The notes beneath the pieces are model-generated. The model was not told the origin of the DNA. It saw only the letters and a program-made list of their open reading frames with translations, and did not search any database. Source: an uncultured Gammaproteobacteria bacterium (GTDB lineage: Bacteria; Patescibacteriota; Microgenomatia; UBA10105; UBA927). Taken from it: a DNA stretch of 64,000 nucleotides. The DNA lies in contig CAYIBX010000003.1 of assembly GCA_964361785.1 (NCBI GenBank), forward strand, positions 4,769 to 68,768. Direction: 5' to 3'. The position numbers and the translations under genes were made by a program. Positions 34,342-53,187 of the stretch are shown here, piece after piece. Numbering within the stretch: the stretch's first letter is position 1; every line of letters begins with the position of its first letter.

Positions 34342-34345
34342 TAAG

Positions 34346-35663: not shown

Positions 35664-36221
35664 CTATTCTTGTTCTGTGGGTGGTGGTATCAATGAATAT
35701 CCTGTTGAGTAGGCGGAAAGAAAGTAATCCTTAGTTGTAATTGGAAAATACCAACGCTCATAAATAATTTGTGAGGCGGGGTTTGCAAGAACCGCCACTC
35801 CCCGTGTAAGATTTACAAAGAGATTAAACCCAAGGGGCGAATAAGGACCATAAAGCACCAAGTCCGGTTTTTGAAAATTTTCATACACTTCCGAAAAAGG
35901 CGCGTTTGGCAATACGGGCTCAATAATTAAAGAAACAACCCCATCTTTATTCAAATATACGGAAACGCTTCTTTCTTTATCTAATGACGGATACTCATAT
36001 ATTAATGAACCACCAATTGTCGTCTCCTTAATTGGTTTTTCAAAAAAATCTTCAACAATAGATTTTAGCGTTTTCCCCGGAACAAGTGAGCGATAAGAAG
36101 ATTGTTGAATTGATAAGGGGGGTTGTTGGGTTTTTGGTGTTGTGCTGCGGGAAACGAAAAACCAAACCCCCAAAAGAATTGCAATTATTACAACAATAAC
36201 TATTTTTAGTTTTATTGGCAT
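35664..36221 (-). CDS. hypothetical membrane-anchored protein (last gene of the T4SS-like operon)
   Basis: 185-aa ORF with an N-terminal transmembrane helix 'IVIVVIIAILLGVWFFV'. It overlaps the upstream gene by 10 nt. Confidence 0.5.
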   Translation of the reverse strand: MPIKLKIVIVVIIAILLGVWFFVSRSTTPKTQQPPLSIQQSSYRSLVPGKTLKSIVEDFFEKPIKETTIGGSLIYEYPSLDKERSVSVYLNKDGVVSLIIEPVLPNAPFSEVYENFQKPDLVLYGPYSPLGFNLFVNLTRGVAVLANPASQIIYERWYFPITTKDYFLSAYSTGYSLIPPPTEQE

Positions 36222-38404
36222 GTTGAAAACATATTTTGCATAAAAGAATATCCCTTTTCACATTTTTGTTTAAGAAGTGGGTCGCCAATCATATACATGC
36301 CCGCCGCCTCAGCAAAAGTTTCTGATGGCCACTCGATCCATCCATAAGTTCCAAGAGGACCACAATAGCCTTTAGCAAGATAAGAATTATAAATATTTAT
36401 CTTACTATATTGTATTTGATGTGCTAATTCATGCGCAATAAGACGGGCCAGAGATCGGGTAGAGGATGCAGAAAAGGCGCCATCATAGAAAAAAATATAC
36501 CCAGGCTTAGCACTGGGCGCCCACGCCCAATACCCGCTTGAGCTCGTTGTATTAAAAGCCGTGAAGTTAACGGCGTTGGCAGGACACTCAAGAATGCACG
36601 AATAAAGCCCAATTTGGGGGTACGCTTTAAGTGCTGTGTTCATTTTGTCTTGTTGCGAAGAGTTAAATTGATATGATTTTTTGTTGTCTGGGGCGCTGGT
36701 TCCAGCGCCATATTGTATACACGCATTCGGGCTTTGTTTGATGGGACCAAAATCAGGAACAGGAAAATTTCTATTATCTTCATGAAAATCTTCGCCCTTA
36801 GATTGTAGAGACGCTAACAACGCGCTCATTTTTTGCATGATTGAGAGATGAGGGATATTTAAAAATGTCGGAAAGACAAAAAGAATAACAATAGTTGCAA
36901 TGACCACAAGCGAAAGAAGGAGTGGTAAATCTTCTGAAAGAGGGGTAGGGACAGCGGCAGCACGACGGGATGCGTGAAGTTGTCTTGAAATTGACGGGCC
37001 GGCAAACGCAAATCCGACGAACCGATCAAAAGCGCTCGCGAGAGCATCCCCTCCTAACGATCCGAGCTTATACAGCCCTACAGAAGGAAGCCACCCTCGT
37101 TGGATCGTGCTTTTTTTGAAAGACATCGCGTATTGGGAACGCATCGACTCAATGTGCCACGGCATGATATTTGGTCCTAAAAAAGAAAATCCTTTTGGGG
37201 CATTGCTACTGGCTCTCGCTAGTTCAAAATAATCAAATAATTTTTCTTTTGTTCCTTGGTTTGTCGCTATATTGAGTGGGCCGCGAAACACTGCGCCAAA
37301 CACGTCACCAAAAATGGCGGTTGACTGCGACATTGTGGGTTTTTCGTTGGCCCCCTTGAGGATATTCTGGGTGACGAATCCAAAGACAGAAGAGTGAATA
37401 AATTTTTCACCCAACCTATCTGATAACTGATTAACCCCCGTTATGACCGAACGAAGCGTGCCATTAATTTTTTCCTTAAGAAGCATTTCTCGCAGTGGTT
37501 CCCCAACGAGAGAGAGGATGCTGTCGGCCGCTTGTTGCGCCCCCTTTATCGCGCCCCTTGTGTTCGAGTTTGAAAAAAACGGCCCCCTTGTCGTGAGCGG
37601 TTTTGTTCCAAGCGAGGCAACAGCCTCTGCGGTTTGTGCTAGTTTTACGGCGCGTACAGAGACGTCAGAGAGTAAAGCGTTTTCACCTGCATGCAAAAAT
37701 ACGTCTGCCACCACGTCAGGGCGGGAAAGGTCGGCGTGGGTGAAAAGGGTGGCAAGCGCCTCGCGCTCCATGTTTGTTTCTCTCCACGACCCCAAAACGG
37801 TACTGGTGGCATCTTTAGATATGGTTGACCCGATTATTTTTTCAAACGCTGGGTCAGAAATTCCAAGTCCTGCTGTGAGGCCTTTGACGAATTTTTGTTG
37901 TGCCTCTTGGGAAGATGGTTCTCTCGATGAGAGAGACAACGCGGCATCAACAGCGGTGTCCATTTTTGTTTCAGGAATTATGCTGCTTGTGCGAATGCTG
38001 TATTGAGAAACAAGTGCGTGTATGAACTCTCTCCGTGTTTGTTTTTGGTGTATAGCCCTTGTCTTTGTTTCTTTGCGTATGGTTTCAAATGCAAAATGTT
38101 CAAGTTCTGCCGCATTGCGCGTTTGTTTCTCGTCGCGTAAAACGTCTGGGGCTTGTGAAGAAAATGCGGGTAACTCCAGCAGGCGACTTTTGGTTTGGCT
38201 AAAAATTGAAAGAAGAGTGGCTTTTAATGATTCGTCGCTTTCAGCTGTCGCGCTGGATAAGTCTTGCGCGTGTTGGGAAAGAAGCGCGCGCATGTATTCG
38301 TATTGAGACGACGCGACTATCGCTTCTTCTGTCGTTATTGCTCCAGACTGTAAGTCGTCAAGGATGTTGTCTATAAATTCGCCTAATTGTTGTTTGTTTG
38401 CCAT
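36212..38404 (-). CDS. large T4SS-associated protein with an internal transmembrane helix and a C-terminal HExxH zincin-like domain
   Basis: 730-aa ORF with the transmembrane segment 'LLLSLVVIATIVILFVFPTFL' and the C-terminal motif 'SLARLIAHELAHQIQY' (HExxH). It lies 8 nt downstream of virB4. Confidence 0.5.
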   Translation of the reverse strand: MANKQQLGEFIDNILDDLQSGAITTEEAIVASSQYEYMRALLSQHAQDLSSATAESDESLKATLLSIFSQTKSRLLELPAFSSQAPDVLRDEKQTRNAAELEHFAFETIRKETKTRAIHQKQTRREFIHALVSQYSIRTSSIIPETKMDTAVDAALSLSSREPSSQEAQQKFVKGLTAGLGISDPAFEKIIGSTISKDATSTVLGSWRETNMEREALATLFTHADLSRPDVVADVFLHAGENALLSDVSVRAVKLAQTAEAVASLGTKPLTTRGPFFSNSNTRGAIKGAQQAADSILSLVGEPLREMLLKEKINGTLRSVITGVNQLSDRLGEKFIHSSVFGFVTQNILKGANEKPTMSQSTAIFGDVFGAVFRGPLNIATNQGTKEKLFDYFELARASSNAPKGFSFLGPNIMPWHIESMRSQYAMSFKKSTIQRGWLPSVGLYKLGSLGGDALASAFDRFVGFAFAGPSISRQLHASRRAAAVPTPLSEDLPLLLSLVVIATIVILFVFPTFLNIPHLSIMQKMSALLASLQSKGEDFHEDNRNFPVPDFGPIKQSPNACIQYGAGTSAPDNKKSYQFNSSQQDKMNTALKAYPQIGLYSCILECPANAVNFTAFNTTSSSGYWAWAPSAKPGYIFFYDGAFSASSTRSLARLIAHELAHQIQYSKINIYNSYLAKGYCGPLGTYGWIEWPSETFAEAAGMYMIGDPLLKQKCEKGYSFMQNMFSTCQ

Positions 38405-38411
38405 ACATTAG

Positions 38412-40283
38412 TTATGTGACGGTTTCGACGGTAAACACTGGGCGATTGGTTGATGGGGGCGCGGGCACAGCAGGCGCTTGTGGTTCTAGTTTTTTCACTG
38501 CGTCTTGTGGTTTGGTGGTGGCCAGCGCGTGTTCTTCTGGGCTTGCCACCACTCTCATGGCAGCATGTGCGGGACCAGCAAAAAACAATCCTTGTCCAAC
38601 GTCTGACGAGAGGAGAAGATGTTTTTCTCCTTCGGACAAGAAAAACACGTCTGCTATTTTTTCTATCGCCGCGGTTGATTGCTTTAGGAGTATCTGCATG
38701 CTGCTGTTTTGGATGATCGCGGTGCCCATGTCTGTGCCCAAGAAATCTTCGACATCTTGTGTAATTGTGGTCATCCCAAGAAAGTATTTGCGCGCGCGCT
38801 TAGCGATGCTATAGAGAAACGTAGCCGAGTCTTGATACTTCATAAGATACCACGCCTCGTCTACGATAAGAAGCCGACGTCTCTTATCGTGTCTAATTTT
38901 GTTCCAGATAAAGTCCAAGATGAGAAACATGGCAATGGGCCGTAATTCGTCTTCAAGATCGCGTATAGAGAAGACAGTAAGCTGATTGCGTATAGCGACA
39001 TTTGTTTGCTGATCAAAGATGCCCACTAAACTTCCTCGGACAAATTTTTCTATGCGGTCAGCTAACCCCTTGGCGAGGGCTTCTTCCATGCCAACGAGCG
39101 TTTTATATAGGTCTTCCATCAGCGGCGGCTCCTTACTGTGGGTTTCAGGATCAGGAGTAATGCCTTTTTGTTTATAGGTTAAAATGAGCGCGCGATCCAA
39201 AAGCGCATCTTCAGAGGGCGTTAATTTTCCCATAACGACACGGAAGAATCCGTGAAGTGATAGTATTTTTTGGCTCAGTTCCCCAGCGTTTGCGTCTTGC
39301 CCCGCAAGAAGCGCTAAATCAAACGGATTTATTTTTGTTTCCGATCCGAAACGGAAGCGCACATACTCGCCGCCCATCGCAAAGGTAAGCGCTTCGTATT
39401 CATTTTCAGGATCAAGAATTATAACTTCCGTGTCAAACATCATTGATCGCATGATTTCAAGCTTAATCATAAAACTTTTACCGCTACCAGACTTACCAAA
39501 AACAACCGCGTTTGCATTCTCTAAAGTGAAGCGATCAAAGATAATTAACGAATCATTGTGCTCGTTTAGCCCATATAATATTCCTTCGTTGGCGGTAAGT
39601 TCTGAAGTGGTAAACGGAAAAGTTGTAGCGAGTGACGTTGTGTCCATGTTTCGTGTGACCATGAGCCTATCTTTACCCATAGGGAGGGTTGTTTTAAATC
39701 CCTCTTCCATCTGAAGTACCGCCTTTTTAGTGACGATAAGAAGTGATCCCAAAGTTGCCTCTACTTGGTTGGTGGTTTTATCAAGGTCTTCTTTAGATTT
39801 TGCCGGTATCGTGACGTAGAGTGCAAATTGGAAAAATCGTTCTGACCCCTTTGCTAATTCTTGTTGAAGCCCCAAGGCATCTTCAAGCGCCACCTGAATG
39901 GAAGGCTCTATCACGCGACCGCGTTTAAGATCTGATTGTATGGTGGCTTCCATTTCTCCCACCTTGCGTTTTAAACTTTCAAGCACTTCTTCTGATCGAG
40001 TGGGGTAGATGTACATAGAAATGTTTAGCGTATGGTTAAATGATATAAGAGGCTCTAACCAATTAGCAGAAACAAATCGAGGATAGCCAGCAGTAAACAG
40101 TGTTCTGTAGTGCCAATCGCCTATCGTTACATCGTTGAAATCTACCTCAATTGCCGGAGGAGATATGACGTCCAAGATGGAGATTGATTCCTCAGTAGTA
40201 GCAGTGGTGACTGAAATTTTATTGCCAGCTTGGGTTTTTGTAAATGTACCAAGAAGTGATGATAAAAGCGTGTTATTTGACAT
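38412..40283 (-). CDS. virB4: type IV secretion/conjugation ATPase VirB4 (TrbE/PrgJ family)
   Basis: Walker A 'GKSGSGKS', Walker B 'LLIVDEAWYLM' and an N-terminus '...TAGYPRFV' typical of VirB4. The start was moved to 'MSNNTLL'. Confidence 0.85.
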   Translation of the reverse strand: MSNNTLLSSLLGTFTKTQAGNKISVTTATTEESISILDVISPPAIEVDFNDVTIGDWHYRTLFTAGYPRFVSANWLEPLISFNHTLNISMYIYPTRSEEVLESLKRKVGEMEATIQSDLKRGRVIEPSIQVALEDALGLQQELAKGSERFFQFALYVTIPAKSKEDLDKTTNQVEATLGSLLIVTKKAVLQMEEGFKTTLPMGKDRLMVTRNMDTTSLATTFPFTTSELTANEGILYGLNEHNDSLIIFDRFTLENANAVVFGKSGSGKSFMIKLEIMRSMMFDTEVIILDPENEYEALTFAMGGEYVRFRFGSETKINPFDLALLAGQDANAGELSQKILSLHGFFRVVMGKLTPSEDALLDRALILTYKQKGITPDPETHSKEPPLMEDLYKTLVGMEEALAKGLADRIEKFVRGSLVGIFDQQTNVAIRNQLTVFSIRDLEDELRPIAMFLILDFIWNKIRHDKRRRLLIVDEAWYLMKYQDSATFLYSIAKRARKYFLGMTTITQDVEDFLGTDMGTAIIQNSSMQILLKQSTAAIEKIADVFFLSEGEKHLLLSSDVGQGLFFAGPAHAAMRVVASPEEHALATTKPQDAVKKLEPQAPAVPAPPSTNRPVFTVETVT

Positions 40284-40938
40284 GTGTCTCCTTTTTGATA
40301 ATAAGACGTGATATGTCAGGCGGGGGAGACCCAGCGTTGTATGCAGAAAAGTAGAGCTTGATAAGTTGTTCGGTAGAAAGCTGTGAGGCGCGAAGCCCCA
40401 CACGCGTTAAAAGTCGCACCAAATGATCCTTTTTGGGAATAAGTACTATTTCTGCGCGATCTAAGATGTATTTTTTTTCAAACGGAAGACCTGATTTTTT
40501 TGTATTAAAAAGCGCTGACGCAGAAATTCCAAGTTCCACAGCAGTAAACGGGAGGACGATATAAAATTTTTTATCTAGCACCACCTTTTCTTTGACCATT
40601 GAAGCCACGAATGAACGATAACTATGAATGCTTTTTTGAAGCTTTGGATTTTTTTGAGTTTTTTCTTTTTCTTCAAGAAGCCCTAAGTATGCAGATATGT
40701 CTTTGTGTATGGTTTGGATAATAAGCTGTATGGGAAACGAAAGCGAATTTAAGAGTCCAGCGTAAGAATAGATGATTGCATCTTGCTCCTTTTCTGATAA
40801 TAACCCAAAATTTACGGCAGTTGTTGCTATGACTAGCGCCACTGATCCGTCAGAAAAAAGGATGAGGTCGCGATCCACGTCAGCAATCTCGGTGAAAAGT
40901 TGTGTGGAGGAACGGATGGGTGAGATTGGGTTTGTCAT
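40273..40938 (-). CDS. hypothetical T4SS-associated protein
   Basis: 221-aa ORF with an 11-nt overlap with virB4 and a 4-nt gap from the upstream PrgI-like gene. No transmembrane segment or motif was recognised. Confidence 0.45.
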   Translation of the reverse strand: MTNPISPIRSSTQLFTEIADVDRDLILFSDGSVALVIATTAVNFGLLSEKEQDAIIYSYAGLLNSLSFPIQLIIQTIHKDISAYLGLLEEKEKTQKNPKLQKSIHSYRSFVASMVKEKVVLDKKFYIVLPFTAVELGISASALFNTKKSGLPFEKKYILDRAEIVLIPKKDHLVRLLTRVGLRASQLSTEQLIKLYFSAYNAGSPPPDISRLIIKKETHVK

Positions 40939-40941
40939 ACG

Positions 40942-42189
40942 TTACATTGGTGGTTTACCAAAAATGTCTTGCGCGATTTTATCGCGCGTTACCTGTTTTT
41001 GACTTTTGGCAATTATTTCTAATGCTGGTACTACAGACCCGTTTAGCGTTACCTGCGCGCGATCAAAGGTAAAGCGCCCTCGTGGATCTTCAATTTCTAT
41101 GACATAGACGCCATTTGGTAGTGGTGTGGATGCCGCAAGTTGTCCTAATTTGTTGGTTTTTAACGCTCGCATAGGGATGCCGTCGGCGTTTGTAACCGTA
41201 ATAAGAATGGCAGGAAGAAATCCTCCCGCACCGTCTTTTACGATACCCGTAATGACGTTTGGAACACTGGTAAATCGCGGGATGCCAGCTCGCACCCCCG
41301 CATCTATGGAACTGAAAGGGCGCACAGTAGGCGCGCTGTTTGTGATTGATGCGACAAGGTCTTTTTCTTCTGCATTGGTGGCTTTTTTTGTGGAGGACGT
41401 GTTTTCAATTTGTCTTTTGAGACGGATAAGCTCGTCGTCTGTGTGCGTTTTTTCTTTGAGCACATTGGTCAACTGCGCTTGTAATTCAAGCACACGATCA
41501 TCCGTGACGTTTTTTGTGGAAAGCTGGTTGCGAAGTGCGGCGACTGCCGCTTCTAATTCTTGTATGTGATGGGTGTCTACAGGAGCCTGTGCGGGCCCAG
41601 CCAGGGGCTGGTCAGCCTTTGGCTGAGGTTCAGGTGGTTTTACCCCTGTGACAGACCTCGTCGTTGGCGTTACCCCTTGTGACGGATGAGAAGGGGTCGT
41701 AAAAAATCCCAATACCTGATCGATAAAGGATGTTGGTTTATGTGAGGAGATGATTTTTGGCGTTGCCGTGAGCGATGGTGGCGCATAAATATGTGAGACT
41801 GATGGTTGTGTGGGCGACACGAGAACTGTAACCCCTTGTGTTCCTTGTGGAGGCGTTGTAGGCGGCATTTTTGATATTTTTGGAGCTGCGATAATCGGTG
41901 CGTGACCCTTTTGCCAAATATATTGCGTCGGACTATAAATACTTTTGAAAAAAGAAAATACCCAGACATCCATAGGTCGTTCTTCTATAGGAACAAACGC
42001 AAATCCTACACCGAGTAAGGCAAATCCGGCAGCAAGAGGCCATGTGAAGAAAAAAGGCAAGGGCAACTTGTATGAAATAATTGCCAAGACGCCCCCAGCA
42101 CACAAGTACCCAAATTGCTTTAAGGTCATGTCGCCGACTAAGCGAAATTGAAATGTGGTAACGTTTTGAGGAACTGGATGTTGCTCCAT
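40942..42189 (-). CDS. PrgI/VirB3-like two-TM protein fused to a Pro/Thr-rich linker, a coiled coil and a C-terminal beta-rich domain
   Basis: 'FQFRLVGDMTLKQFGYLCAGGVLAIISYKL' matches the PrgI-family motif (FGLTxRQLxYLxxG). It is followed by two transmembrane helices, a 'PPTTPPQGTQG...' linker and a C-terminal 'VYVIEIEDPRGRFTF'. Confidence 0.55.
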   Translation of the reverse strand: MEQHPVPQNVTTFQFRLVGDMTLKQFGYLCAGGVLAIISYKLPLPFFFTWPLAAGFALLGVGFAFVPIEERPMDVWVFSFFKSIYSPTQYIWQKGHAPIIAAPKISKMPPTTPPQGTQGVTVLVSPTQPSVSHIYAPPSLTATPKIISSHKPTSFIDQVLGFFTTPSHPSQGVTPTTRSVTGVKPPEPQPKADQPLAGPAQAPVDTHHIQELEAAVAALRNQLSTKNVTDDRVLELQAQLTNVLKEKTHTDDELIRLKRQIENTSSTKKATNAEEKDLVASITNSAPTVRPFSSIDAGVRAGIPRFTSVPNVITGIVKDGAGGFLPAILITVTNADGIPMRALKTNKLGQLAASTPLPNGVYVIEIEDPRGRFTFDRAQVTLNGSVVPALEIIAKSQKQVTRDKIAQDIFGKPPM

Positions 42190-42313
42190 ATAACCATTGT
42201 AGGAATGGATGTGACATGTGACAAGGGGCACAAAGCGCATCAGGACCGTGAAAACTCGTATTTTAATGTTTCACGAACACGGAGAATTTTTTCACGTATG
42301 ATAAGATAGATGC

Positions 42314-44488
42314 ATGGAAAAGGGTAATGTTTTGTTGGAAGTTACAAATAGTCGTGACAGCGAAGAAAAACCCCTTGCGATGGAACAGGTGTTTGCAGCA
42401 CTAGGCGGAAAATCCCACATTGGTTTTATAGAATGGCTGATGGGGAAACGTGAACACCATGAATTTATTAGTTTTGAAATCGTTGCAGTAAACAGCCAAG
42501 TTCATTTTTTTGTGGGCGTATCTTTAGAGAAACGCTCGTATATTGAGAGTCAACTTACTGCTCAATATCCAAGAGTAATGTTGACGCCTGTTTCAGATTA
42601 TGCCCAAGCATTTTTTTCGTTGCCCCACGCGACAGGAACTATTGTTTTGTCCAACAGTTTCTACTACCCACTAAAAACGTACAAAGATTTAAAAGACGTG
42701 GATATATTAGCAAGTGTTTTAGGGCAAATCGCAAAATTACCAAAACAGCAAGCAGTTGCTTTGCAGTTATGCATTACGCCCGCTGGAAACAGCTGGCAAC
42801 GGAAGGGAGCAAGCGTGATTGCGGCGGGTGTTCCCGATGCATCATCAACCACGGGACGAACAAAAACTCATCCGCACAGTCGCATTATCGAACAAAAACT
42901 TTCCCAAGTCGGGTTTCTTTCCGCGTTTCGTGTTGTAAGCGTTGGACAAACAGAGACTCAAGCAGACGGGCTGCTTTCAAGTATCGCGGGGACGCTCGGT
43001 GTATATACGCTGGGCGAAGGAAATGCGCTTGTCATTACCAAGCATGCGTTTTGGCAAAAGAAGGCATTTATGAACGGGTTCATTAAGAGAAATGGTCAGG
43101 GTGCTCTAAAGGGTCAAATATTGGGCAACGCAGAATTAGCTTCCGTTTGGCATCCGCCAGGATTAGGACTCTCGATGATAAAAAATATACAATGGGGTGT
43201 GCGCCTTTTGGGTGAACCCCCCGCAAATCTTCCGATTGCTACTGATGATGAGGAGCAACGAAAACATATTAATTTTTTTGCGCGCACAGAATTCAAAAAT
43301 ACGATAACCACGTTTGGTGTTGAGCGGACGGATAGAAGAAAGCATCTCTATATAATCGGAAAAACAGGGACAGGGAAGTCAACCCTCATTGCAAATATGG
43401 CGATTAACGACATGAAAAATGGTGAAGGGGTGGCAGTCATTGATCCGCATGGAGATCTTACAGATATTTTGTTAACATACGTGCCATCACACCGCATTAA
43501 TGATGTCGCATATTTAGACCCTGCTGATATTGAGCACCCGTTTCACTTAAATCCTTTGGAGGTAAAAAATCCAGCATATAGAGATTTGGTGGCATCAGGC
43601 ATAGTCTCGATATTTTATAAGCTGTATCACATGAGTTGGGGGCCCCGCCTTGAATATATTTTACGTAATACTATCTTGACGCTCACACACGTTCCCGACT
43701 CTACATTTTTAGATATTCCGGAACTTCTCACGAATGAAAAATTTCGTATGAAGGTCATAGAAAATCTTGATGACAAAGTGCTCAAGAGTTTTTGGGTAAA
43801 TGAGTTTAATAAATTATCACCTCAACTTCGCAGCGAATCCATCTCACCAATTTTAAATAAAGTGGGGCAATTTTTGTCGTCGCAAACTATACGAAATATT
43901 GTCGGCAAACCGCATTCAACAATTGATCTTGAGAACATGATGAATGAAGGGAAAATTATTCTCGTCAATTTGTCTCAAGGAAAGCTCGGAGAAGATACCA
44001 GCGCCCTTTTGGGAGCCATGCTTATCACTAAAATTCAGTTAGCCGCGATGAATAGAGTGTACATTGAAGAAGAAAGGCGGAGAGATTTTTATTTGTATGT
44101 CGATGAATTTCAAAATTTTGCGACGCAATCATTTATCAAAATTTTATCAGAAGCCAGAAAGTATCGCCTAGATTTAACACTTGCCAATCAGTATGTGGGA
44201 CAAATAGATGAGGAGGTGCAAAAAGCAATTTTTGGCAATGCAGGCTCACTCATTTCATTTTCTGTGGGAGCGGCAGATAGTAGGTTATTATCTCGCGAAT
44301 TTGGAGAACGGTATAAAGAGGATGAATTAGTGTCTCTTGGCAATTATCAGATTGTATTAAAGCTCTCCATTGACAATCAAACATCACCGCCGTTTTCAGC
44401 GACGACCCTGCCGCTTCCGCGATCTGTCAACCAAAACAGAGAGAAAGTAGTGAGGGGCTCTCGCGAGAGGTATACAAAAATGCTTTAG
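42314..44488 (+). CDS. VirD4/TraG/TraD-like type IV coupling-protein ATPase (FtsK/HerA superfamily)
   Basis: Walker A 'IIGKTGTGKSTLIANMA', Walker B 'FYLYVDEFQNFAT' and 'VIDPHGDL'. It is divergent from the virB4 operon. No N-terminal transmembrane segment is evident. Confidence 0.6.
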   Translation: MEKGNVLLEVTNSRDSEEKPLAMEQVFAALGGKSHIGFIEWLMGKREHHEFISFEIVAVNSQVHFFVGVSLEKRSYIESQLTAQYPRVMLTPVSDYAQAFFSLPHATGTIVLSNSFYYPLKTYKDLKDVDILASVLGQIAKLPKQQAVALQLCITPAGNSWQRKGASVIAAGVPDASSTTGRTKTHPHSRIIEQKLSQVGFLSAFRVVSVGQTETQADGLLSSIAGTLGVYTLGEGNALVITKHAFWQKKAFMNGFIKRNGQGALKGQILGNAELASVWHPPGLGLSMIKNIQWGVRLLGEPPANLPIATDDEEQRKHINFFARTEFKNTITTFGVERTDRRKHLYIIGKTGTGKSTLIANMAINDMKNGEGVAVIDPHGDLTDILLTYVPSHRINDVAYLDPADIEHPFHLNPLEVKNPAYRDLVASGIVSIFYKLYHMSWGPRLEYILRNTILTLTHVPDSTFLDIPELLTNEKFRMKVIENLDDKVLKSFWVNEFNKLSPQLRSESISPILNKVGQFLSSQTIRNIVGKPHSTIDLENMMNEGKIILVNLSQGKLGEDTSALLGAMLITKIQLAAMNRVYIEEERRRDFYLYVDEFQNFATQSFIKILSEARKYRLDLTLANQYVGQIDEEVQKAIFGNAGSLISFSVGAADSRLLSREFGERYKEDELVSLGNYQIVLKLSIDNQTSPPFSATTLPLPRSVNQNREKVVRGSRERYTKML

Positions 44489-44751: not shown

Positions 44752-45032
44752 GTATTAAGATAGCGCATCATGTCTTTTACGTTGGTAAATTCCTTCGTTT
44801 TTACTTTTTTGGACTTAATTTCATCAATCATTTTGTTATAGCGATGGATCGCGCGTGTAGAAAGTTGAATTTTTGGAGGCTCAAACGTCACGCGGTGTAT
44901 TCCCGTTGCCATGCCAGAGAGAAACACCCTCACCGCTTCTTGTAAAGAAGAAAAACCTTGAGAGCGAACTGCGATAGTCGCGTCGTCACGCAATTTTCTA
45001 TTCATAGGAACCTGAAGGATTGTGTTGTTCAT
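44748..45032 (-). CDS. RelB/DinJ-like ribbon-helix-helix antitoxin
   Basis: 'LRDDATIAVRSQGFSSLQEAVRVFLSGMA' resembles RelB/DinJ, and the gene is coupled to the downstream RelE-like ORF. Confidence 0.6.
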   Translation of the reverse strand: MNNTILQVPMNRKLRDDATIAVRSQGFSSLQEAVRVFLSGMATGIHRVTFEPPKIQLSTRAIHRYNKMIDEIKSKKVKTKEFTNVKDMMRYLNT

Positions 45033-45097
45033 ATAATATAATTATAACAGTTTGGTAGTGGATGTCAACGCAGTGGAATTGGTATAATACGTTTTGT

Positions 45098-45661: not shown

Positions 45662-45705
45662 CACCTCGTCTTGTATGCACTTTCTTTAAAGGATAGAATA
45701 AATAC

Positions 45706-48700
45706 ATGGCAGGAGAAGAATTATCCAGAAGAATTGCTGAGGCTGCGAAAAAAGCAGCAGAGCAAGCTACGCAACAAAAGGCTGAGCAGCCACAACCTGT
45801 CGAAAACGCTCCCACAGAAAATGCAGCACCAAACGATGTGCATGAAGTACCTGCCGAGCGCATGGTTGAATTTACCAATAAAGTGACACAAGGTGTGCCA
45901 GAAGCTGCGCAAAAAATAATTGGAGCAGGTGAGTATCCCAAAGATGAGCGCGTGTTTTCTATCGTCGAGTCGCTTCTTGTGGCAGACGAGGCGATGCTTT
46001 CAGACAGCGCATACATGCGTACGATTGGAGAGAAACTAGCGACCGTTGTAAACGAGACAGGATACTTTAGCGACACAGGGGTTGAAGCACGTAAATATCT
46101 TAATCGTATTATTGCAGAAAATCCAAGTTTGGAGGATCTGCGTTTACGAGCCATGCCGGAGGTTTCTGGAGTATCTGGGTTACAAGATCAACCCGAAGAA
46201 TTATCAGGGGTCACTGACCCAGAGTATAAAGAAGTAGTTAAACAGCTTTACGACGAGCCAAACGAATCAATTCTTAAGGACACTTCTATTGGGAAAGAAC
46301 TGCAGAATTTGCAGTTTAGGTTAGAAGTTGATCCTAATTCCTTGTTTCGCGATCAGCACATGATTGACGGTGTGGTGACGCGGATGGTGATAGCGGGGCA
46401 GAAAGATGGCCTTGACGCGAAAATTGTACGTGAAGGGGTGAATAGAGCACGGGCGCTTGAAGCATGGGTGGGTGAGAGGTTGGAGGCGGAAGATACGCGA
46501 GGCATTATCAGATGGTCAGAAGTGAAAAATGATGCACCTAAAGGGGTTGAGCATGTTGATAATCAAGCATTTATGTTTCGAGACATTACTAAAGATGAAA
46601 TAGATAAGTATTTCAAACGAGGCGCCGAGGGAGAAGCAGACTGGTACTTTAACTTTATAGATCAAATTTATTCATTGGGGAGAGAAGAGTCGCGACCCGG
46701 CTTAACGCACGAGCAGCGTTTTCAAGAGTTTAAAGATTATCTAGTGTGGAAGTATGGCGACGAGTATCATTTGGCAGTCCAGCTGTATCAAAAACATTGG
46801 GACAGCCGTGGTCAGTTTGAGTACGCGGTAAAAGGCTTGATGTATAACCCTGGTGACGTAAAAGATCGTTTGAAAGCCATGTCGCTTTTGACTGGCGCAG
46901 ACCTAGACCATTTATACAAAAATTTTAATAACTCAAACGTTGCTTATAGTTTGTACGAAGGCGTCATGTTTGAGACGATGGCAGAAAAGCGTAGAAAGTA
47001 TGGAGAAGCAATTAAATATTTAGGCGAAGAGGTGACGTGGGACAAAAAACATATTAAAAGAGAGGATTTGCTTAAAGAATTAAAGAGTAAACACCGAGAA
47101 GAGGGGTTTGATCCCGAGACGGGCAAAAGGACGCAGAGCTCATTGTCTGTCGAAGACCAAAAGCTCATGTTTGAAATTCAACATCAAAACGATTTGGCGG
47201 CAGAGGGCGTAATGCTTTGGGACGATGACGTGCAAAGTTACACAGAAATGCACATAACGCTTTCCAAGCTACAGACTGAACGTGAGGGTCTTATGAAGAA
47301 AAAAAATTCAGGTGAGCCGCTTTCGGAAAAAGAAATGGATCAACTGCATGAAGTAGATAGGAAATATCAAATATATGCACATCGCGAACACATGCTCAAC
47401 GAAAATTTTACTCAAGAGTTGTTACAGACAAGAGGCTTGTCTCCCGTTGATATAGAAGTTCGCAAACGTCTCACTGAGTACTACAAAAGCACGCATAGTG
47501 GACAAGAACCGCCAGAGTATGAAGTGCGTATGGCGTTGTGGGCCGCTCGTACCGCCATGATTGGGTCAGGACGCATGGCAATGATTGGGTCCATGATGTC
47601 TATAGGGCCTCGTGAGTCTGGATACACATCTTCATCAGGCAAGGACGTTATGCGCGCACCGGCATTTGAAGATTTGCAGCGCATTTTTAATCCGGAAGTG
47701 TTTGCCTCTCGTTTTAGTATTGGTGGCGATTTTGGGAAAGTAGCACGGCAAGTGTTCAGAAAGAATTTGTTAAACACCAAGGGTATAGATGAGAAAAAGC
47801 AGGGATGGCTTAAAAAAACATGGAATGGATTGTTTAGTGGTGGAGAAGAGTCGCACGGGAAATTGAGTTATACGAAAGAATGGGGACATGCTAAAGAGCA
47901 TGAGCACGATGCCGCAAGGCGAGCCGCCATGGAAACAGCAGAATTTGCAGAAGACGCAAGCGGGATATCGTTTAGTGAATTGCTCGGCCCTGGGTTTATG
48001 AACTCGGGAGGATTTTACGATGGTACGGGATGGCGGTTAGAAAAAGGAGTGTTTGATGAATTGCGAAATAAAGTGATGGACATGAGAAAGCTGCCTGAAG
48101 GAGCGACACTTCTGGATAACCAAGCGCTCTCCATTCAGTTGTTGACGGCTAGTAACGCCGAAGAGCGTAGACCAATACTTGATCGGATGCTTAGAAGAAA
48201 CCCATCAAAATTCTTGGAGCTTTTGCAAGAAGATTCAGAAAAAATATTACAAAAGCATAATGTGACGCATGAAGAGTGGGGACAGTTTAAAGAAGCATTA
48301 TCTTTGGCTGAATTAAAGATAGCACATGAAAAAGAATGGCAGTTCGTCAGAATTGATATGGCAGACAAGAAAGATTACGATGCTCTTATTGCTCCATTTT
48401 TAAAAACCTTGGGACTTGAAGATATAGGACGCCAAGAAAATTTACGTCAAGTGTTGGTCGACATGCAGTCGGTACTGTATGAAAAACGAACAGTTGAGAC
48501 TGGAGGCGGGAAGGTGTTTCACACAAAAATGGATGCAGTCGCTGAATTAAAGCTCCCATTGACTATGTCCATGACAGATTTTGATTGGAAGGAAAGTAAC
48601 TTTTATCAATTAGGAACAGTCGCAATGCATCGTAGAATTCGTGATGTAGGATCTCAAATGCGCGCGCGCGACGCAATTTTGGGCATTATATCCAATCAAG

Positions 48701-49311
48701 AAATGGTGCTTTCACCCGTTGACTACTCAAAGACACTTGAAAAGTTTCGGGAAGTGAGGGAGGCGATTATAGACTATTCCGGCGCAGACGCGGCTGAGGC
48801 GACGGTGAAAGAGTTAGCCCGCGTCTTTTTGGAGATGAACAGACACAAGCACATAAATCTCGAGTGGATACCATTTGATTTGGGAACGAAAGCTTTTAAA
48901 GAAATGGCTGAGTGGGATTTGCGATGGTTGAAAAATGCATGGATTTTAACACCATTTAAGCTTGCCGCTGGGAAAGAGCGGTGGAATAAATTAATGGATG
49001 ATAAGGTGATGCACTGGCCACATTCATTCGGTGAATACATATCATATGCAGTGCGTTACACAGGCAGCCATGCCAATGCCTATGATGAGGCGAAAATGGA
49101 AGAGATTATTTCCGGCATGGAACAAATGGGTTTATTTATCAATCACCATGAGTATGGACATGATTTGCGAAACGAGTTTAAGACGCGTTTAGGGTTTCGG
49201 TTGTGGAGCCAAGTACGTAAATATTGGTTTGTGCTTTTTGCAATCACCGTTGCTACTGCTGCCACGCAGGCAGTGACAGAAGAAGGTAAAAAGGATGGAG
49301 GAGGACATTAA
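45706..49311 (+). CDS. very large (1201 aa) hypothetical protein with a C-terminal transmembrane anchor, inside the T4SS-like locus
   Basis: Single uninterrupted ORF. It has an acidic/Lys-rich helical N-terminus, the motif 'HHEYGH' near the C-terminus and a final hydrophobic segment 'YWFVLFAITVATAATQA'. No known domain was recognised. Confidence 0.55.
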   Translation: MAGEELSRRIAEAAKKAAEQATQQKAEQPQPVENAPTENAAPNDVHEVPAERMVEFTNKVTQGVPEAAQKIIGAGEYPKDERVFSIVESLLVADEAMLSDSAYMRTIGEKLATVVNETGYFSDTGVEARKYLNRIIAENPSLEDLRLRAMPEVSGVSGLQDQPEELSGVTDPEYKEVVKQLYDEPNESILKDTSIGKELQNLQFRLEVDPNSLFRDQHMIDGVVTRMVIAGQKDGLDAKIVREGVNRARALEAWVGERLEAEDTRGIIRWSEVKNDAPKGVEHVDNQAFMFRDITKDEIDKYFKRGAEGEADWYFNFIDQIYSLGREESRPGLTHEQRFQEFKDYLVWKYGDEYHLAVQLYQKHWDSRGQFEYAVKGLMYNPGDVKDRLKAMSLLTGADLDHLYKNFNNSNVAYSLYEGVMFETMAEKRRKYGEAIKYLGEEVTWDKKHIKREDLLKELKSKHREEGFDPETGKRTQSSLSVEDQKLMFEIQHQNDLAAEGVMLWDDDVQSYTEMHITLSKLQTEREGLMKKKNSGEPLSEKEMDQLHEVDRKYQIYAHREHMLNENFTQELLQTRGLSPVDIEVRKRLTEYYKSTHSGQEPPEYEVRMALWAARTAMIGSGRMAMIGSMMSIGPRESGYTSSSGKDVMRAPAFEDLQRIFNPEVFASRFSIGGDFGKVARQVFRKNLLNTKGIDEKKQGWLKKTWNGLFSGGEESHGKLSYTKEWGHAKEHEHDAARRAAMETAEFAEDASGISFSELLGPGFMNSGGFYDGTGWRLEKGVFDELRNKVMDMRKLPEGATLLDNQALSIQLLTASNAEERRPILDRMLRRNPSKFLELLQEDSEKILQKHNVTHEEWGQFKEALSLAELKIAHEKEWQFVRIDMADKKDYDALIAPFLKTLGLEDIGRQENLRQVLVDMQSVLYEKRTVETGGGKVFHTKMDAVAELKLPLTMSMTDFDWKESNFYQLGTVAMHRRIRDVGSQMRARDAILGIISNQEMVLSPVDYSKTLEKFREVREAIIDYSGADAAEATVKELARVFLEMNRHKHINLEWIPFDLGTKAFKEMAEWDLRWLKNAWILTPFKLAAGKERWNKLMDDKVMHWPHSFGEYISYAVRYTGSHANAYDEAKMEEIISGMEQMGLFINHHEYGHDLRNEFKTRLGFRLWSQVRKYWFVLFAITVATAATQAVTEEGKKDGGGH

Positions 49312-49317
49312 TTTTTA

Positions 49318-50925
49318 TTAGTGCTCTTCACCCTGTCCTTCGCCGGTGAGCGCCCCAAATCCTTGTTGTGAGCCTTTTCTGACGACTTGTGAAGGGGATG
49401 CCCCGTGCCCCTTGCTTCCAAACATGCTTTTGATCATACTTCCTTGATACCAGATATTCATAAGAGATCCTGCGCCTTGACCAAGAGGCCCAAACATGGC
49501 GCCAAGGCCTCCTGGGATTGCTGGTTCTGCCTTCATAGATTTTTGAATACCAGCAACAAACGTTGGAATGATAAGAATCATGCCAAGTCCTATAATTCCC
49601 GCCATCCCGTAACTACCCCCCCCTGATGATAATAGCGGAGGCGCCCAAATAGTGGCTGCGTTATCAGTGTATGTGAGAATAGCAGACACCAAAAGAAGAA
49701 TAATCGTGATCGGAAACACGATGAGCTTTGATACTAAATGTCGAAGCCATGAGTTAAATGATGTAGATCCTGGAATTGCTTCTAGAACGAGCTGAAATGG
49801 TGCGGTCAGAAGGGCAATAATGATGTTTATATACGCATCAATGAGCATGAAGAGGATGCGAATAAATCCAAACAGGAGCACGAGTAAAATAATGAGAATT
49901 AAAAGCACAGGACCGCTAAAAAGAGAAAGTCCTAGAAGAGCGCCCTTGGTTCCTCCAATAAAGGCACCAAGAAGACCAGGGATGATAAAAGAGAGCTTTT
50001 GTACAACTGGATTTGTACCCCCAAACACGTCTCCAATATCATTCCATGCACCTAAGCCACTGCCAAAGAAAAATCGTGTAAATCCCCAGAATCCACCACT
50101 GAATAAATAATCGGTTGCTTCTTTGGTCGTCCATGTCAAGTTAACAGGCTGTCCTGAAAGATAGTTTGGTATTGCAGCAGCTTTGCACACACTACTAGAG
50201 ACGCTGAGCGCTTTCCCAATGCTATCACCGATAGAGCTGTTGGCAATCATGGAGATGGCTAGGGCAATAAGAAGATACATACCGTCTATAAGAAGCCCGA
50301 CAATTGCGTAGGAAAATGTGACCAGAAGCAGGGCTACAACTATACGGGGGATTGAGTTTTGTACCGTGACGACAGTTTTGGGGTCAATTTTTTTGCGAAA
50401 CATAACCATGAGTCCAACCATGATGAGAATGACTGCCAGTATTCCATACGAGATGTCTCGAAATACTTTCCAGAGAGGAAGCAGTGTGGCAAGGCCCGAA
50501 AATCCTATGCCCTGTGCGTTGACACGAGGTGTTACAAATCCTAATGACCGACCAATGTCCATGGCATATTCAGCGGTAGACGCAGGGGGGTTGGTATAGA
50601 TTGCTGTAATAGACCCACCAATGCCGCTGAGCGCACCTTTTTGGAAATTAAGAGCTGTTGGACACTGTGCGTCTGTCGTGTCCCATGCGCCACCAATCAT
50701 GATGGATAACGCGTTGATGCTATTATTGGTGGTCGCAAAATTTGATCCTTCTAAATTCAGGGTCCCCTCATTTGATTTTTTGAGTACTTGGGTAAAACAC
50801 GACATTGATTGACCAATCCACGAGCATTCTTCGTTTTCTAGTGCTAAAACAGAAAAGATAGGATAACTTACGGCAAGAAATGTTAAAAAGAGCGCCGTAA
50901 TAAGATATTGTATTGTTTTTTTCAT
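49318..50925 (-). CDS. VirB6/TrbL-like polytopic inner-membrane T4SS protein
   Basis: 535-aa ORF with a signal or transmembrane segment, a ~130-aa extracytoplasmic loop, at least six transmembrane helices and a Gly-rich C-terminus. It lies immediately downstream of the pilin array. Confidence 0.55.
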   Translation of the reverse strand: MKKTIQYLITALFLTFLAVSYPIFSVLALENEECSWIGQSMSCFTQVLKKSNEGTLNLEGSNFATTNNSINALSIMIGGAWDTTDAQCPTALNFQKGALSGIGGSITAIYTNPPASTAEYAMDIGRSLGFVTPRVNAQGIGFSGLATLLPLWKVFRDISYGILAVILIMVGLMVMFRKKIDPKTVVTVQNSIPRIVVALLLVTFSYAIVGLLIDGMYLLIALAISMIANSSIGDSIGKALSVSSSVCKAAAIPNYLSGQPVNLTWTTKEATDYLFSGGFWGFTRFFFGSGLGAWNDIGDVFGGTNPVVQKLSFIIPGLLGAFIGGTKGALLGLSLFSGPVLLILIILLVLLFGFIRILFMLIDAYINIIIALLTAPFQLVLEAIPGSTSFNSWLRHLVSKLIVFPITIILLLVSAILTYTDNAATIWAPPLLSSGGGSYGMAGIIGLGMILIIPTFVAGIQKSMKAEPAIPGGLGAMFGPLGQGAGSLMNIWYQGSMIKSMFGSKGHGASPSQVVRKGSQQGFGALTGEGQGEEH

Positions 50926-51310: not shown

Positions 51311-51329
51311 AAAGAGAGTATATCAAAAA

Positions 51330-51662: not shown

Positions 51663-51739
51663 AGATGTAATTATATCCTACTTACCATTCTTGCGCAAGA
51701 AATTGATCCTTGTCAAGGACCATCGTTAGTATAGGCACA

Positions 51740-52087: not shown

Positions 52088-52092
52088 AGTGT

Positions 52093-52464: not shown

Positions 52465-52466
52465 TA

Positions 52467-52823: not shown

Positions 52824-52827
52824 ATCG

Positions 52828-53133: not shown

Positions 53134-53187
53134 ATTTTAAGTGTACGAAAACTCGCACAGAATCTCAAGATCTTGTATACTCACCGC

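What the first reader, a model, noticed from the sequence alone, without database searches (positions are those of the whole stretch)
35664..50925. Gram-positive-style type IV secretion/conjugation-like gene set located next to oriC
A tightly packed minus-strand operon of five genes (overlaps of 4-11 nt) encodes a PrgI/VirB3-like fusion protein, a 221-aa unknown, VirB4, a 730-aa protein with one transmembrane helix and a C-terminal HExxH domain, and a membrane protein. A VirD4/TraG-like ATPase lacking obvious N-terminal transmembrane helices is transcribed divergently. A VirB6-like polytopic protein lies downstream of the pilin genes. No relaxase, primase or oriT is evident, and comM and dprA lie about 30 kb away. 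The system may therefore act in DNA uptake or host-cell attachment rather than plasmid transfer. It is chromosomal, at the replication origin, with no integrase beside it.
Basis: partly seen in the sequence, partly recalled or inferred. Interest (0 to 1): 0.7.

Follow-up and report, generated by a model that had tools for sequence, protein, structure and literature searches.

The report
Known-type CPR type IV secretion locus
This is a chromosomal type IV secretion gene cluster of the kind already described in ultra-small 'candidate phyla radiation' (Patescibacteria) bacteria: it sits beside the replication origin, has no conjugation genes, and is thought to connect the parasite to its host cell; this copy is an ordinary member with a few lineage-specific extras.

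Summary
The genes exist as described, and the locus is a real type IV secretion system (T4SS). VirB4 passes the NCBIfam CD1110 cut-off. The 221-aa protein is the split-off VirB4 N-domain (TrsD). The 432-aa protein is PrgI fused to a conserved beta-sandwich. The 724-aa ATPase is a coupling protein with no transmembrane helix. Six VirB2-like pilins follow, just outside the stated coordinates. oriC lies between dnaA and dnaN.

The organism is a Gottesmanbacteria-like member of Microgenomatia. PrgI-TrsD-VirB4 occurs in 75-78 of 80 related genomes. dnaN follows in 51 of 55 loci with enough downstream sequence, and VirB4 is more conserved than DnaA in 55 of 55. I found no relaxase, and every flanking gene is housekeeping, so this is not an integrative element.

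This system class, including its origin-proximal position, missing relaxase, TrsD and pilin arrays, was published in 2023-2025, and its function is still unknown.

Modest additions:
- The 730-aa protein has a conserved cytoplasmic part and a swappable wall-hydrolase ectodomain (M23, C39-like or HExxH).
- The coupling protein is adjacent only in this clade.
- A Gottesmanbacteria-specific 1201-aa all-helical protein sits next to the putative VirB6 and matches no known fold.
- The VirB6 assignment remains unproven.

The parts
34279..34498 (.). oriC DnaA-box cluster in the dnaA-dnaN spacer (context). dnaA is 32911-34341 (+) and dnaN is 34546-35652 (+).
   Evidence: Eight of the 24 window matches to TTATCCACA (1 mismatch or fewer) lie here or at 32939-32957, including both perfect boxes. 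The GC-skew minimum is at 34-35 kb. DnaA and DnaN are confirmed by Pfam.
35664..36221 (-). 185-aa protein with an N-terminal membrane anchor; last gene of the core operon. It occupies the position of PrgL (VirB8-like) in pCF10 and of the 'exported protein' SEML1_0005 in S. epibionticum.
   Evidence: One TM helix at residues 5-23. No Pfam or NCBIfam hit. hhalign against PrgL is not significant. A small N-anchored protein occupies this position in most related loci, but its domains vary.
36212..38404 (-). 730-aa bitopic protein: conserved cytoplasmic helical N-part (about 490 aa), one TM helix, and a swappable extracellular hydrolase domain (here HExxH). Positional equivalent of PrgK and of SEML1_0007.
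   Evidence: TM helix at 493-511. In 13 homologues, the region up to about residue 535 (through the TM helix) is conserved while the C-terminal domain is Peptidase_M23 (10), Peptidase_C39_2 (2) or HExxH (1, plus the window copy). The C-terminal domain alone scores 22 bits on Peptidase_M57 (gathering score 21). AF2 is confident only for residues 4-265, and there is no fold match.
38412..40286 (-). VirB4 ATPase, 624 aa, lacking the usual N-terminal domain.
   Evidence: NF045971 conju_CD1110 scores 401.5 bits (cut-off 325) but matches profile positions 168-730 of 752 only. PDB 4ag5 scores E 3e-45. Identity is 56-92% to Microgenomatia VirB4s and 38% or less to plasmid VirB4s.
40273..40938 (-). 221-aa TrsD-like protein: the VirB4 N-terminal domain encoded as a separate polypeptide.
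   Evidence: All 22 family members hit the N-region of the VirB4_plasma profile and 18 of 22 hit TrsD, best E 1.2e-13. hhalign aligns the family to residues 28-198 of a full-length 797-aa CD1110 VirB4, E 3.3e-5. It is present in 78 of 80 loci.
40942..42240 (-). 432-aa PrgI/VirB3-like protein fused to a Pro-rich linker, a coiled coil and a C-terminal beta-sandwich.
   Evidence: PrgI scores 27.5 bits (gathering score 27). Of 34 homologues, 33 hit PrgI and all 34 hit CarboxypepD_reg at the C-terminus.
42314..44488 (+). 724-aa coupling-protein-like ATPase (T4CP) with no TM helix and a 330-aa soluble N-domain. It is divergent from the core operon across a 73-bp spacer.
   Evidence: TrwB_AAD_bind, TraG-D_C and DUF87 all score above their gathering scores. 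It is below all NCBIfam cut-offs. It has no TM helix. The Walker A motif GKTGTGKS and the Walker B DE are invariant in 16 orthologues, with 76% mean column identity. The orthologue in L083 carries PF26449 DUF8128. It is adjacent to virB4 in 14 of 16 loci with VirB4 above 70% identity and in 0 of 32 more distant loci.
45706..49311 (+). 1201-aa all-helical protein, probably C-terminally anchored, convergent with the VirB6-like gene. It is a lineage-specific candidate accessory; whether it belongs to the system is inferred from synteny only.
49318..50925 (-). 535-aa polytopic membrane protein directly downstream of the pilin array; putative VirB6 analogue (unproven).
   Evidence: A signal-like segment plus about 6-8 hydrophobic segments. 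All 434 homologues are 'hypothetical' and have no Pfam hit. hhalign against PrgH and CD1112 is not significant. A polytopic protein follows the pilin array in all nine related loci listed and in L083.
50978..53133 (-). Array of six VirB2-like pilin genes: 50978-51310, 51330-51662, 51740-52087, 52093-52464, 52467-52823 and 52828-53133.
   Evidence: PF18895 T4SS_pilin scores 35.6, 40.0, 30.2, 23.2, 22.4 and 30.6 bits (gathering score 26.6). Each has two hydrophobic helices. Pairwise identity is 22-43%, mean 31%. One pilin also hits the mycoplasma ICE pilin-like family NF045849, below its cut-off.
53119..54619 (+). ECF-type sigma factor (53119-53727), a 76-aa ORF (53729-53959) and a Yip1 membrane protein (54002-54619), divergent from the pilin array. 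They are conserved neighbours and a candidate regulator (inferred).
   Evidence: Sigma70_r2 and Sigma70_r4_2 hits and a Yip1 hit. The same three genes flank the pilin array in L083.

Best explanation
This is the chromosomal, vertically inherited, non-conjugative T4SS typical of Patescibacteria, here in a Gottesmanbacteria-like Microgenomatia genome.

Proposed mechanism:
- PrgI, TrsD and VirB4 form the membrane-associated ATPase platform. VirB4 is split into two polypeptides.
- The bitopic 730-aa protein sits in the membrane and uses its extracellular peptidase to open the peptidoglycan around the channel. It may also act on the host wall.
- The polytopic 535-aa protein provides the membrane channel.
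- The six divergent VirB2-like pilins build a tube that reaches the host cell.
- The soluble coupling-type ATPase docks on the cytoplasmic face.

I favour the tube acting as a conduit through which the epibiont takes up host macromolecules, mainly nucleic acid for nucleotide supply, rather than exporting plasmid DNA.

Shown here: component identities (except VirB6 and the VirB8 position), collinearity with Gram-positive conjugative systems, no detectable relaxase domain, the origin-proximal conserved position, and very strong purifying selection.

Inferred: pilus formation, contact with a host, the substrate and the direction of transport.
For: Component identities rest.

The gene order PrgI-(TrsD)-VirB4-large wall hydrolase-small anchored protein matches three known systems:
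- pCF10: PrgI-PrgJ-PrgK-PrgL.
- pCDC3875.
- S. epibionticum SEML1_0010 to SEML1_0005.

I found no relaxase domain, and all neighbours are housekeeping genes.

Conservation:
- PrgI-TrsD-VirB4 is present in 75-78 of 80 species-level genomes.
- dnaN is adjacent in 51 of 55 loci with enough downstream sequence.
- VirB4 is more conserved than DnaA in 55 of 55 loci, mean 67.7% against 53.4%.

The pilin paralogues are divergent (mean 31% identity) and the hydrolase ectodomains are swapped. Both fit a surface exposed to variable host or wall chemistry.

Literature:
- The T4SS and its pilins are essential for epibiotic growth in S. epibionticum (PMC10633639), while competence (ComEC) is dispensable (PMC12857230).
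- The T4SS has been proposed as a route for nucleotide acquisition (PMC11665869).
- In a cultivated relative, tubular structures that may be T4SS pili penetrate the host envelope while host RNA is taken up (bioRxiv 10.64898/2026.06.21.733656).

Precedents for import by VirB4-type machines are ComB and Ced. The window VirB4 and T4CP give sub-threshold hits to CedB and CedD.
Against: Nothing in the sequence gives the direction of transport or the substrate.

- Coupling proteins are classically export receptors, and one is tightly linked here. This favours export at least as much as import.
- The CedB and CedD hits are far below their cut-offs and mostly cover P-loop regions.
- VirB6 and a VirB8-like component are not demonstrated.
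- No experiment exists for any Microgenomatia member, and the host is unknown.
- The RNA-uptake work is a preprint that itself calls the mechanism unresolved.
Confidence: 0.4

Rival explanations
1. The same machine works outward. It is a contact-dependent effector translocator that injects proteins (hydrolases, toxins or host-manipulating factors) into or onto the host bacterium, with the adjacent coupling ATPase as substrate receptor.
For: A coupling-protein-type ATPase is divergently paired with the core operon and is highly conserved. T4SSs with coupling proteins are normally exporters (established knowledge of VirD4-dependent systems). Published speculation for Saccharibacteria favours effector delivery (PMC10633639, PMC11665869). 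The 89K island T4SS of Streptococcus suis is a Gram-positive precedent (PMC12857230).
Against: No candidate effector with a recognisable toxin or enzyme domain lies in the locus. The only large unknown protein (1201 aa) appears to be membrane-anchored and cytoplasmic. In S. epibionticum the coupling-protein homologue is not essential while the T4SS is (PMC12102498). The coupling protein is adjacent only in one clade.
Confidence: 0.3
2. The system is mainly an attachment organelle. The VirB2-like pilus and surface domains hold the epibiont on its host, and no substrate passes through.
For: There are six divergent pilins, and surface-type beta-sandwich domains are fused to PrgI. Conjugative pili act mainly in attachment (PMC12857230).
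Against: Adhesion in Saccharibacteria is already assigned to type IV pili (PMC12206443; Xie 2022, cited in PMC12857230). Keeping two ATPases under very strong purifying selection is hard to explain by adhesion alone.
Confidence: 0.1
3. It is a ComB-like DNA-uptake machine for natural transformation, working with ComM and DprA.
For: comM and dprA are in the window. ComB of H. pylori is a T4SS used for DNA uptake (PMC11665869). In the ABY1 class, T4SS loci co-localise with comF, recG and radA (PMC12102498).
Against: comM and dprA lie 26-28 kb away, behind about 25 housekeeping genes. In S. epibionticum, transformation depends on type IV pili and ComEC and is dispensable, while the T4SS is essential (PMC12857230). 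A coupling protein and a pilin array are not ComB features.
Confidence: 0.1
4. It is the transfer module of an integrated conjugative element, and its relaxase lies outside the window or is too divergent to recognise.
For: The core genes are homologous to and collinear with conjugative MPF-FATA systems. A few Patescibacteria genomes do carry relaxases (PMC12102498).
Against: No ORF I scanned has a relaxase domain. The only recombinase is Xer-like and 20 kb away. The flanks are dnaA/dnaN on one side and the mevalonate pathway on the other, and there is no compositional break. The position next to dnaN is conserved in 51 of 55 genomes, and VirB4 diverges more slowly than DnaA. The best plasmid VirB4 is only 37-38% identical.
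Confidence: 0.03

Closest known systems
Patescibacteria-clade T4SS: S. epibionticum SEML1_0005-0019 (Wang et al. 2023, PMC10633639) and the survey of Quinonero-Coronel et al. 2025 (PMC12102498)
   Same: - The order PrgI-TrsD-VirB4-large protein with C-terminal peptidase-small exported protein is shared.
- Both have an array of six PF18895 pilins and a polytopic protein near the pilins.
- Both lack a relaxase.
- Both sit next to dnaA/dnaN on the chromosome.
   Different: - A coupling-type ATPase is divergently adjacent here. This holds for only 148 of 5,713 Patescibacteria T4CPs in the survey, and the S. epibionticum homologue is distant and non-essential.
- The hydrolase ectodomain is an HExxH domain here, not M15/M23 plus lysozyme.
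- No NTF2/VirB8-like protein was detected.
- PrgI carries a conserved beta-sandwich.
- A Gottesmanbacteria-specific 1201-aa protein is present.
Conjugative MPF-FATA T4SS of Firmicutes: pCF10 Prg/Pcf and the CTn2/CD1110 type (pCDC3875)
   Same: - VirB4 belongs to the CD1110 family at above-threshold score.
- A PrgI is present.
- The order VirB3-VirB4-wall hydrolase-small anchored protein is shared.
- There are no outer-membrane core proteins.
   Different: - No relaxase, MobC, oriT or adhesin was found.
- VirB4 is split into TrsD plus an ATPase part.
- VirB2-like pilins are present, which Gram-positive systems lack.
- The coupling protein has no TM domain and only weak similarity to CD1115 (hhalign E 0.002).
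- VirB4 identity is only 29-38%.
Mycoplasma ICE T4SS (Mbov_0395 pilin-like protein, Mbov_0397 VirB4)
   Same: The second-best NCBIfam family for VirB4 (260 bits), and the family hit by all 22 TrsD-family members scanned (the TrsD model itself hit 18), is the mycoplasma ICE VirB4. One pilin hits the mycoplasma ICE 'pilin-like' family.
   Different: All these scores are below the family cut-offs. Mycoplasma ICEs are mobile and encode their own DDE recombinase; this locus is fixed.
DNA-import machines built on VirB4-type ATPases: H. pylori ComB and Sulfolobales Ced
   Same: They are non-conjugative uses of T4SS-type ATPases, without a relaxase, and they transport inward. This is the functional analogy I favour.
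   Different: The window proteins hit CedB and CedD far below their cut-offs (57.6 vs 700 bits; 34.6 vs 600 bits). ComB has neither a coupling protein nor a pilin array. No functional evidence exists for this locus.

Membership tests
T4SS superfamily | VirB4-family ATPase with Walker A and B motifs | tested here: met
   NF045971 scores 401.5 bits (cut-off 325). P-loop_TraG scores 7e-26. PDB 4ag5 scores E 3e-45.
MPF-FATA / Gram-positive-type T4SS | PrgI/VirB3-like small membrane protein next to virB4 | tested here: met
   The window copy scores 27.5 bits (gathering score 27). Of 34 homologues, 33 hit PrgI, best E 4.2e-10. It is upstream of virB4 in 75 of 80 loci.
MPF-FATA / Gram-positive-type T4SS | VirB6/PrgH/CD1112-type polytopic channel protein | tested here: inconclusive
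   The protein is polytopic and positionally conserved next to the pilins. It has no Pfam, NCBIfam or PDB-sequence hit, and hhalign against PrgH and CD1112 gives E 0.15-0.28.
MPF-FATA / Gram-positive-type T4SS | VirB8-like (NTF2-fold) bitopic protein such as PrgL, TraM or TcpC | tested here: inconclusive
   The 185-aa N-anchored protein sits in the PrgL position. hhalign against PrgL is not significant, and there is no PDB-sequence hit. I predicted no structure for it.
MPF-FATA / Gram-positive-type T4SS | Membrane-anchored cell-wall hydrolase encoded after virB4 (PrgK, TraG, CD419) | tested here: met
   Ten of the 13 homologues of the 730-aa protein carry Peptidase_M23 and two carry Peptidase_C39_2 in the ectodomain. 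The window copy has an HExxH domain instead, scoring 22 bits on M57 (gathering score 21). Activity on peptidoglycan is inferred.
Type IV coupling protein (VirD4/TraG/TrwB) | TrwB-type nucleotide-binding domain with Walker motifs and a TraG-D_C region | tested here: met
   TrwB_AAD_bind scores 29.3 bits (gathering score 20.5) and TraG-D_C scores 25.5 bits (gathering score 22). PDB TrwB scores E 4e-6 over the P-loop region only. The Walker motifs are invariant.
Type IV coupling protein (VirD4/TraG/TrwB) | N-terminal transmembrane anchor | tested here: not met
   No hydrophobic segment was found. Instead there is a 330-aa soluble N-domain, which is PF26449 DUF8128 in the L083 orthologue. The protein is also below all NCBIfam T4CP family cut-offs.
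Conjugative plasmid or integrative conjugative element | Relaxase (MOB) and oriT | tested here: not met
   No relaxase Pfam domain was found in any window ORF scanned. I did not search for oriT, because no relaxase family was available to guide the search.
Conjugative plasmid or integrative conjugative element | Integrase or att borders, and patchy distribution among relatives | tested here: not met
   The nearest recombinase is Xer-like and 20 kb away. The locus is at a conserved position next to dnaN in 51 of 55 genomes, and VirB4 is more conserved than DnaA in 55 of 55.
Patescibacteria-clade T4SS (PMC12102498) | VirB4 groups with Patescibacteria VirB4s rather than with mobile-element VirB4s | tested here: met
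   Identity is 56-92% to Microgenomatia genomes against 38% or less to any of 72,556 plasmids. I built no phylogenetic tree.
Patescibacteria-clade T4SS (PMC12102498) | TrsD homologue associated with virB4 | tested here: met
   the homologue is present in 78 of 80 loci.
Patescibacteria-clade T4SS (PMC12102498) | Array of divergent VirB2-like (PF18895) pilins | tested here: met
   Six genes, of which four score above the gathering score. Mean pairwise identity is 31% and the maximum is 43%. The paper reports a mean of 25% and a maximum of 54%.
Patescibacteria-clade T4SS (PMC12102498) | Essential for epibiotic growth on a host | not testable with these tools
   Known only for S. epibionticum (PMC10633639). 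Strong purifying selection here is consistent with essentiality but is not a test.
ComB/Ced-type DNA import systems | Sequence membership in the CedB/CedD or ComB families | tested here: not met
   CedB scores 57.6 bits (cut-off 700) and CedD scores 34.6 bits (cut-off 600).

The most novel reading that the evidence does not exclude
In the Gottesmanbacteria lineage the ancestral Patescibacteria T4SS may have gained a dedicated cytoplasmic substrate-handling module. This would comprise the TM-less, DUF8128-type coupling ATPase that is divergently co-regulated with the core operon. It would also include the 1201-aa, confidently modelled all-helical protein of no known fold that is always convergent with the channel and pilin genes. 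Together they would feed or receive a macromolecular substrate such as host nucleic acid. If so, this clade would be the best place to identify what these essential but functionally unknown secretion systems actually transport.
Probability: 0.15. Interest if true: 0.65.

Novelty: new member of a known kind. Interest (0 to 1): 0.3.

Why it matters
Patescibacteria make up a large share of bacterial diversity. Their T4SS is the only one known to be essential for its owner's growth, yet its substrate and direction of transport are unknown.

This locus does not change that picture. It is a textbook member of the class. It does give clean, conserved examples of four features that the published HMM surveys under-detect in Microgenomatia:
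- PrgI next to virB4.
- A candidate VirB6.
- A modular wall hydrolase.
- An adjacent coupling ATPase.

These could guide annotation and the choice of targets once a Microgenomatia member is cultivated.

Tried and rejected
1. Structure of the 730-aa protein. AF2 with a 14-sequence alignment gave a confident model only for residues 4-265 (helical). The HExxH domain was not modelled, and Foldseek against the PDB found nothing (best E 1.6).

2. A fused 730+185-aa query, meant to save a database search, returned only 730-aa homologues, although the 185-aa protein is in the collection. I therefore obtained no alignment or structure for the 185-aa protein.

3. VirB6 tests all failed to reach significance. 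I tried Pfam on 10 family members, NCBIfam, PDB sequence profiles (10 and 46 sequences), and hhalign against PrgH and CD1112. Both hhalign runs picked the same stretch (residues 359-402), which is suggestive but not evidence.

4. The 185-aa family compared with PrgL and with the 227-aa pCDC3875 protein was not significant.

5. The N-domain of the coupling ATPase compared with the TrsD family showed no similarity. The idea that it docks through a VirB4-like N-domain is not supported.

7. The promoter and terminator scans were no better than shuffled sequence for promoters (32 found against 35.7 expected). I did not use them to define the operon.

8. The ICE reading is rejected on context and conservation.

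Full report
**Observation**

On the minus strand, from 42240 down to 35664, lie five tightly packed genes:
- a 432-aa PrgI-like protein;
- a 221-aa protein;
- VirB4, most likely starting at the ATG at 40286 (624 aa), which matches the 612-655 aa of its homologues;
- a 730-aa protein;
- a 185-aa protein.

The junctions are a 3-nt gap, a 14-nt overlap, a 7-nt gap and a 10-nt overlap. A 724-aa ATPase is transcribed divergently across a 73-bp spacer. Further right come nadD, a 1201-aa ORF, a convergent 535-aa polytopic protein and six small pilin genes. The pilin array (50978-53133) lies outside the coordinates given in the finding.

The replication origin is real. Cumulative GC skew has its minimum at 34-35 kb. 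DnaA boxes, including both perfect copies, cluster just upstream of dnaA and in the dnaA-dnaN spacer.

**Component identities**

- VirB4 scores 401.5 bits on NCBIfam NF045971 (CD1110 family, cut-off 325), but it covers only profile positions 168-730.
- The missing N-terminal part is the 221-aa protein. All 22 family members tested hit the N-region of a VirB4 profile, and 18 hit TrsD. The family profile aligns end to end with residues 28-198 of a full-length 797-aa VirB4 (E 3.3e-5). VirB4 is therefore split, as already noted for Patescibacteria 'TrsD' (PMC12102498).
- PrgI is marginal in the window copy (27.5 bits against 27). It is solid for the family: 33 of 34 members hit PrgI, and all 34 also carry a C-terminal CarboxypepD_reg-like beta-sandwich.
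- The 724-aa ATPase passes the Pfam thresholds for TrwB_AAD_bind and TraG-D_C and fails all NCBIfam coupling-protein families. It has no transmembrane helix. Its 330-aa N-domain is annotated DUF8128 in an orthologue.
- Four of the six pilins pass PF18895. The pilins share 22-43% identity.
- The 535-aa protein is polytopic, but no sequence or profile test links it to VirB6.

**The 730-aa protein**

Its homologues keep the first 530 or so residues, a cytoplasmic helical region plus one TM helix. They exchange the extracellular C-terminal domain: ten carry Peptidase_M23, two carry Peptidase_C39_2, and one, like the window copy, carries an HExxH domain.

In nearly all related loci the gene after virB4 encodes a 600-1200-aa protein with a TM helix near residue 400-600, followed by a small N-anchored protein. 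This is the position of PrgK-PrgL in pCF10 and of an SLT-domain protein in pCDC3875. In S. epibionticum the same position holds SEML1_0007 (C-terminal DD-peptidase-like), SEML1_0006 and SEML1_0005.

I conclude that it is the system's wall hydrolase with an interchangeable catalytic head. The structure prediction did not resolve the head.

**Organism and inheritance**

The closest genomes are Candidatus Gottesmanbacteria and other Microgenomatia MAGs. Across 80 species-level loci:
- PrgI-TrsD-VirB4 is present in 75-78.
- dnaN follows in 51 of the 55 loci with at least 7 kb downstream, and is convergent in 46.
- VirB4 is more conserved than DnaA and DnaN in all 55 comparable loci (means 67.7%, 53.4% and 42.1%).

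The best of 72,556 plasmids reaches only 37-38% identity. The rest of the window is housekeeping: aminoacyl-tRNA synthetases, comM, dprA, yidC, mur genes, the mevalonate pathway and uppS. I found no relaxase domain, and the only recombinase is a Xer-like one 20 kb away. The ICE alternative is therefore rejected.

**What is known**

This class of system is published.
- Wang et al. 2023 (PMC10633639) showed that the T4SS and its pilin array (SEML1_0006-0019, next to the origin) are essential for epibiotic growth of a Saccharibacterium. They noted the absence of a relaxase.
- Quinonero-Coronel et al. 2025 (PMC12102498) surveyed thousands of Patescibacteria genomes. They reported the MPF-FATA affinity of VirB4, the presence of TrsD, PrgI, VirB6 and VirB2 arrays, the lack of relaxases, and the proximity to dnaA/dnaN, explicitly including Microgenomatia.
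- A 2025 review lists these systems as a new T4SS group (PMC12857230).

The function is described as 'completely unknown' (PMC11665869). Proposals include effector delivery and nucleotide or nucleic-acid acquisition. A 2026 preprint reports tubular structures, possibly T4SS pili, penetrating the host envelope together with uptake of host RNA.

**Mechanism**

I favour a host-contact conduit used for uptake of host macromolecules (0.4), with effector export close behind (0.3). Adhesion only (0.1), transformation-type DNA uptake (0.1) and conjugation (0.03) follow.

Only the parts list, the collinearity with Gram-positive systems, the lack of a detectable relaxase domain and the strong selection are shown here. 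Pilus formation, host contact, substrate and direction are inferred from relatives and from the literature.

**What this locus adds**

1. The coupling ATPase is adjacent to virB4 in 14 of 16 loci of the close clade and in none of 32 more distant loci. The survey found such adjacency for only 148 of 5,713 homologues.
2. With a lineage-specific query, PrgI is next to virB4 in almost all Microgenomatia loci examined, whereas the survey found only 22.6% associated.
3. A 434-member family of polytopic proteins next to the pilin array is the obvious candidate for the VirB6 that the survey found 'scarce' in this class, but I could not prove homology.

**Verdict**

This is a new member of a known kind, with minor lineage-specific variations. 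Interest is 0.3.

Noticed in passing
window 12628-12917 (+): A tRNA(CAU) gene is interrupted in its anticodon loop by a 212-nt group I intron. Rfam RF00028 scores 63.2 bits (gathering score 50). ARAGORN misses the gene in the raw sequence but calls tRNA-Met(CAT) after in-silico splicing at U12658/G12870. A second, uninterrupted tRNA-Met(CAT) lies at 13700-13772, followed by a Xer-like recombinase at 14191-15084.
   Followed up: partly
window 44485-45068 (-): A type II toxin-antitoxin remnant lies between the coupling ATPase and nadD. It has a 94-aa antitoxin-like ORF (44748-45032) behind a perfect extended sigma-70 promoter (TTGACA-16-TATAAT, 45068 to 45041). It also has a RelE/YafQ-like toxin ORF interrupted by an in-frame TGA at 44581-44583, where I would expect a Trp in such toxins from memory (not tested). 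The toxin is probably inactivated.
   Followed up: partly
window 35664-42240 (-) relative to oriC at about 34.4 kb: The core T4SS operon is convergent with dnaA-dnaN, so it is transcribed head-on to the rightward replication fork. The pilin and VirB6-like genes are also head-on. The convergent virB4/dnaN arrangement is conserved in 46 of 55 related loci. This sits awkwardly with the published idea that origin proximity simply serves gene dosage.
   Followed up: partly
window 53119-54619 (+); L083 6294-7714: An ECF-type sigma factor, a 76-aa ORF and a Yip1-family membrane protein are divergent from the pilin array. The same trio flanks the pilins in a relative whose VirB6-like protein is 54% identical. 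It may be a dedicated regulator of pilin expression.
   Followed up: partly
window 40942-42240 (-) and 33 homologues in loci L001-L079: In Microgenomatia, PrgI is always fused to a linker, a coiled coil and a C-terminal CarboxypepD_reg-like beta-sandwich with a highly conserved motif (GIVKD..G..LPG...RALKTN.LGQF). Classical PrgI (pCF10) is only 117 aa. I did not determine the topology or role of the extra domain.
   Followed up: partly
window 51330-51662 (-); The pilins and the VirB4 and TrsD proteins give their next-best NCBIfam hits to mycoplasma ICE families (Mbov_0395 'pilin-like' and Mbov_0397 VirB4). All are below the cut-offs. This hints that pilin-like proteins are not entirely absent from the MPF-FATA group, contrary to the usual statement.
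   Followed up: no
window 9689-10396 (-) and 24975-25418 (-): An AbiEii-type toxin (nucleotidyltransferase) gene lies directly beside dprA. An RNase H/RVT_3-like 147-aa ORF lies near polysaccharide-synthesis genes. I did not examine either further.
   Followed up: no
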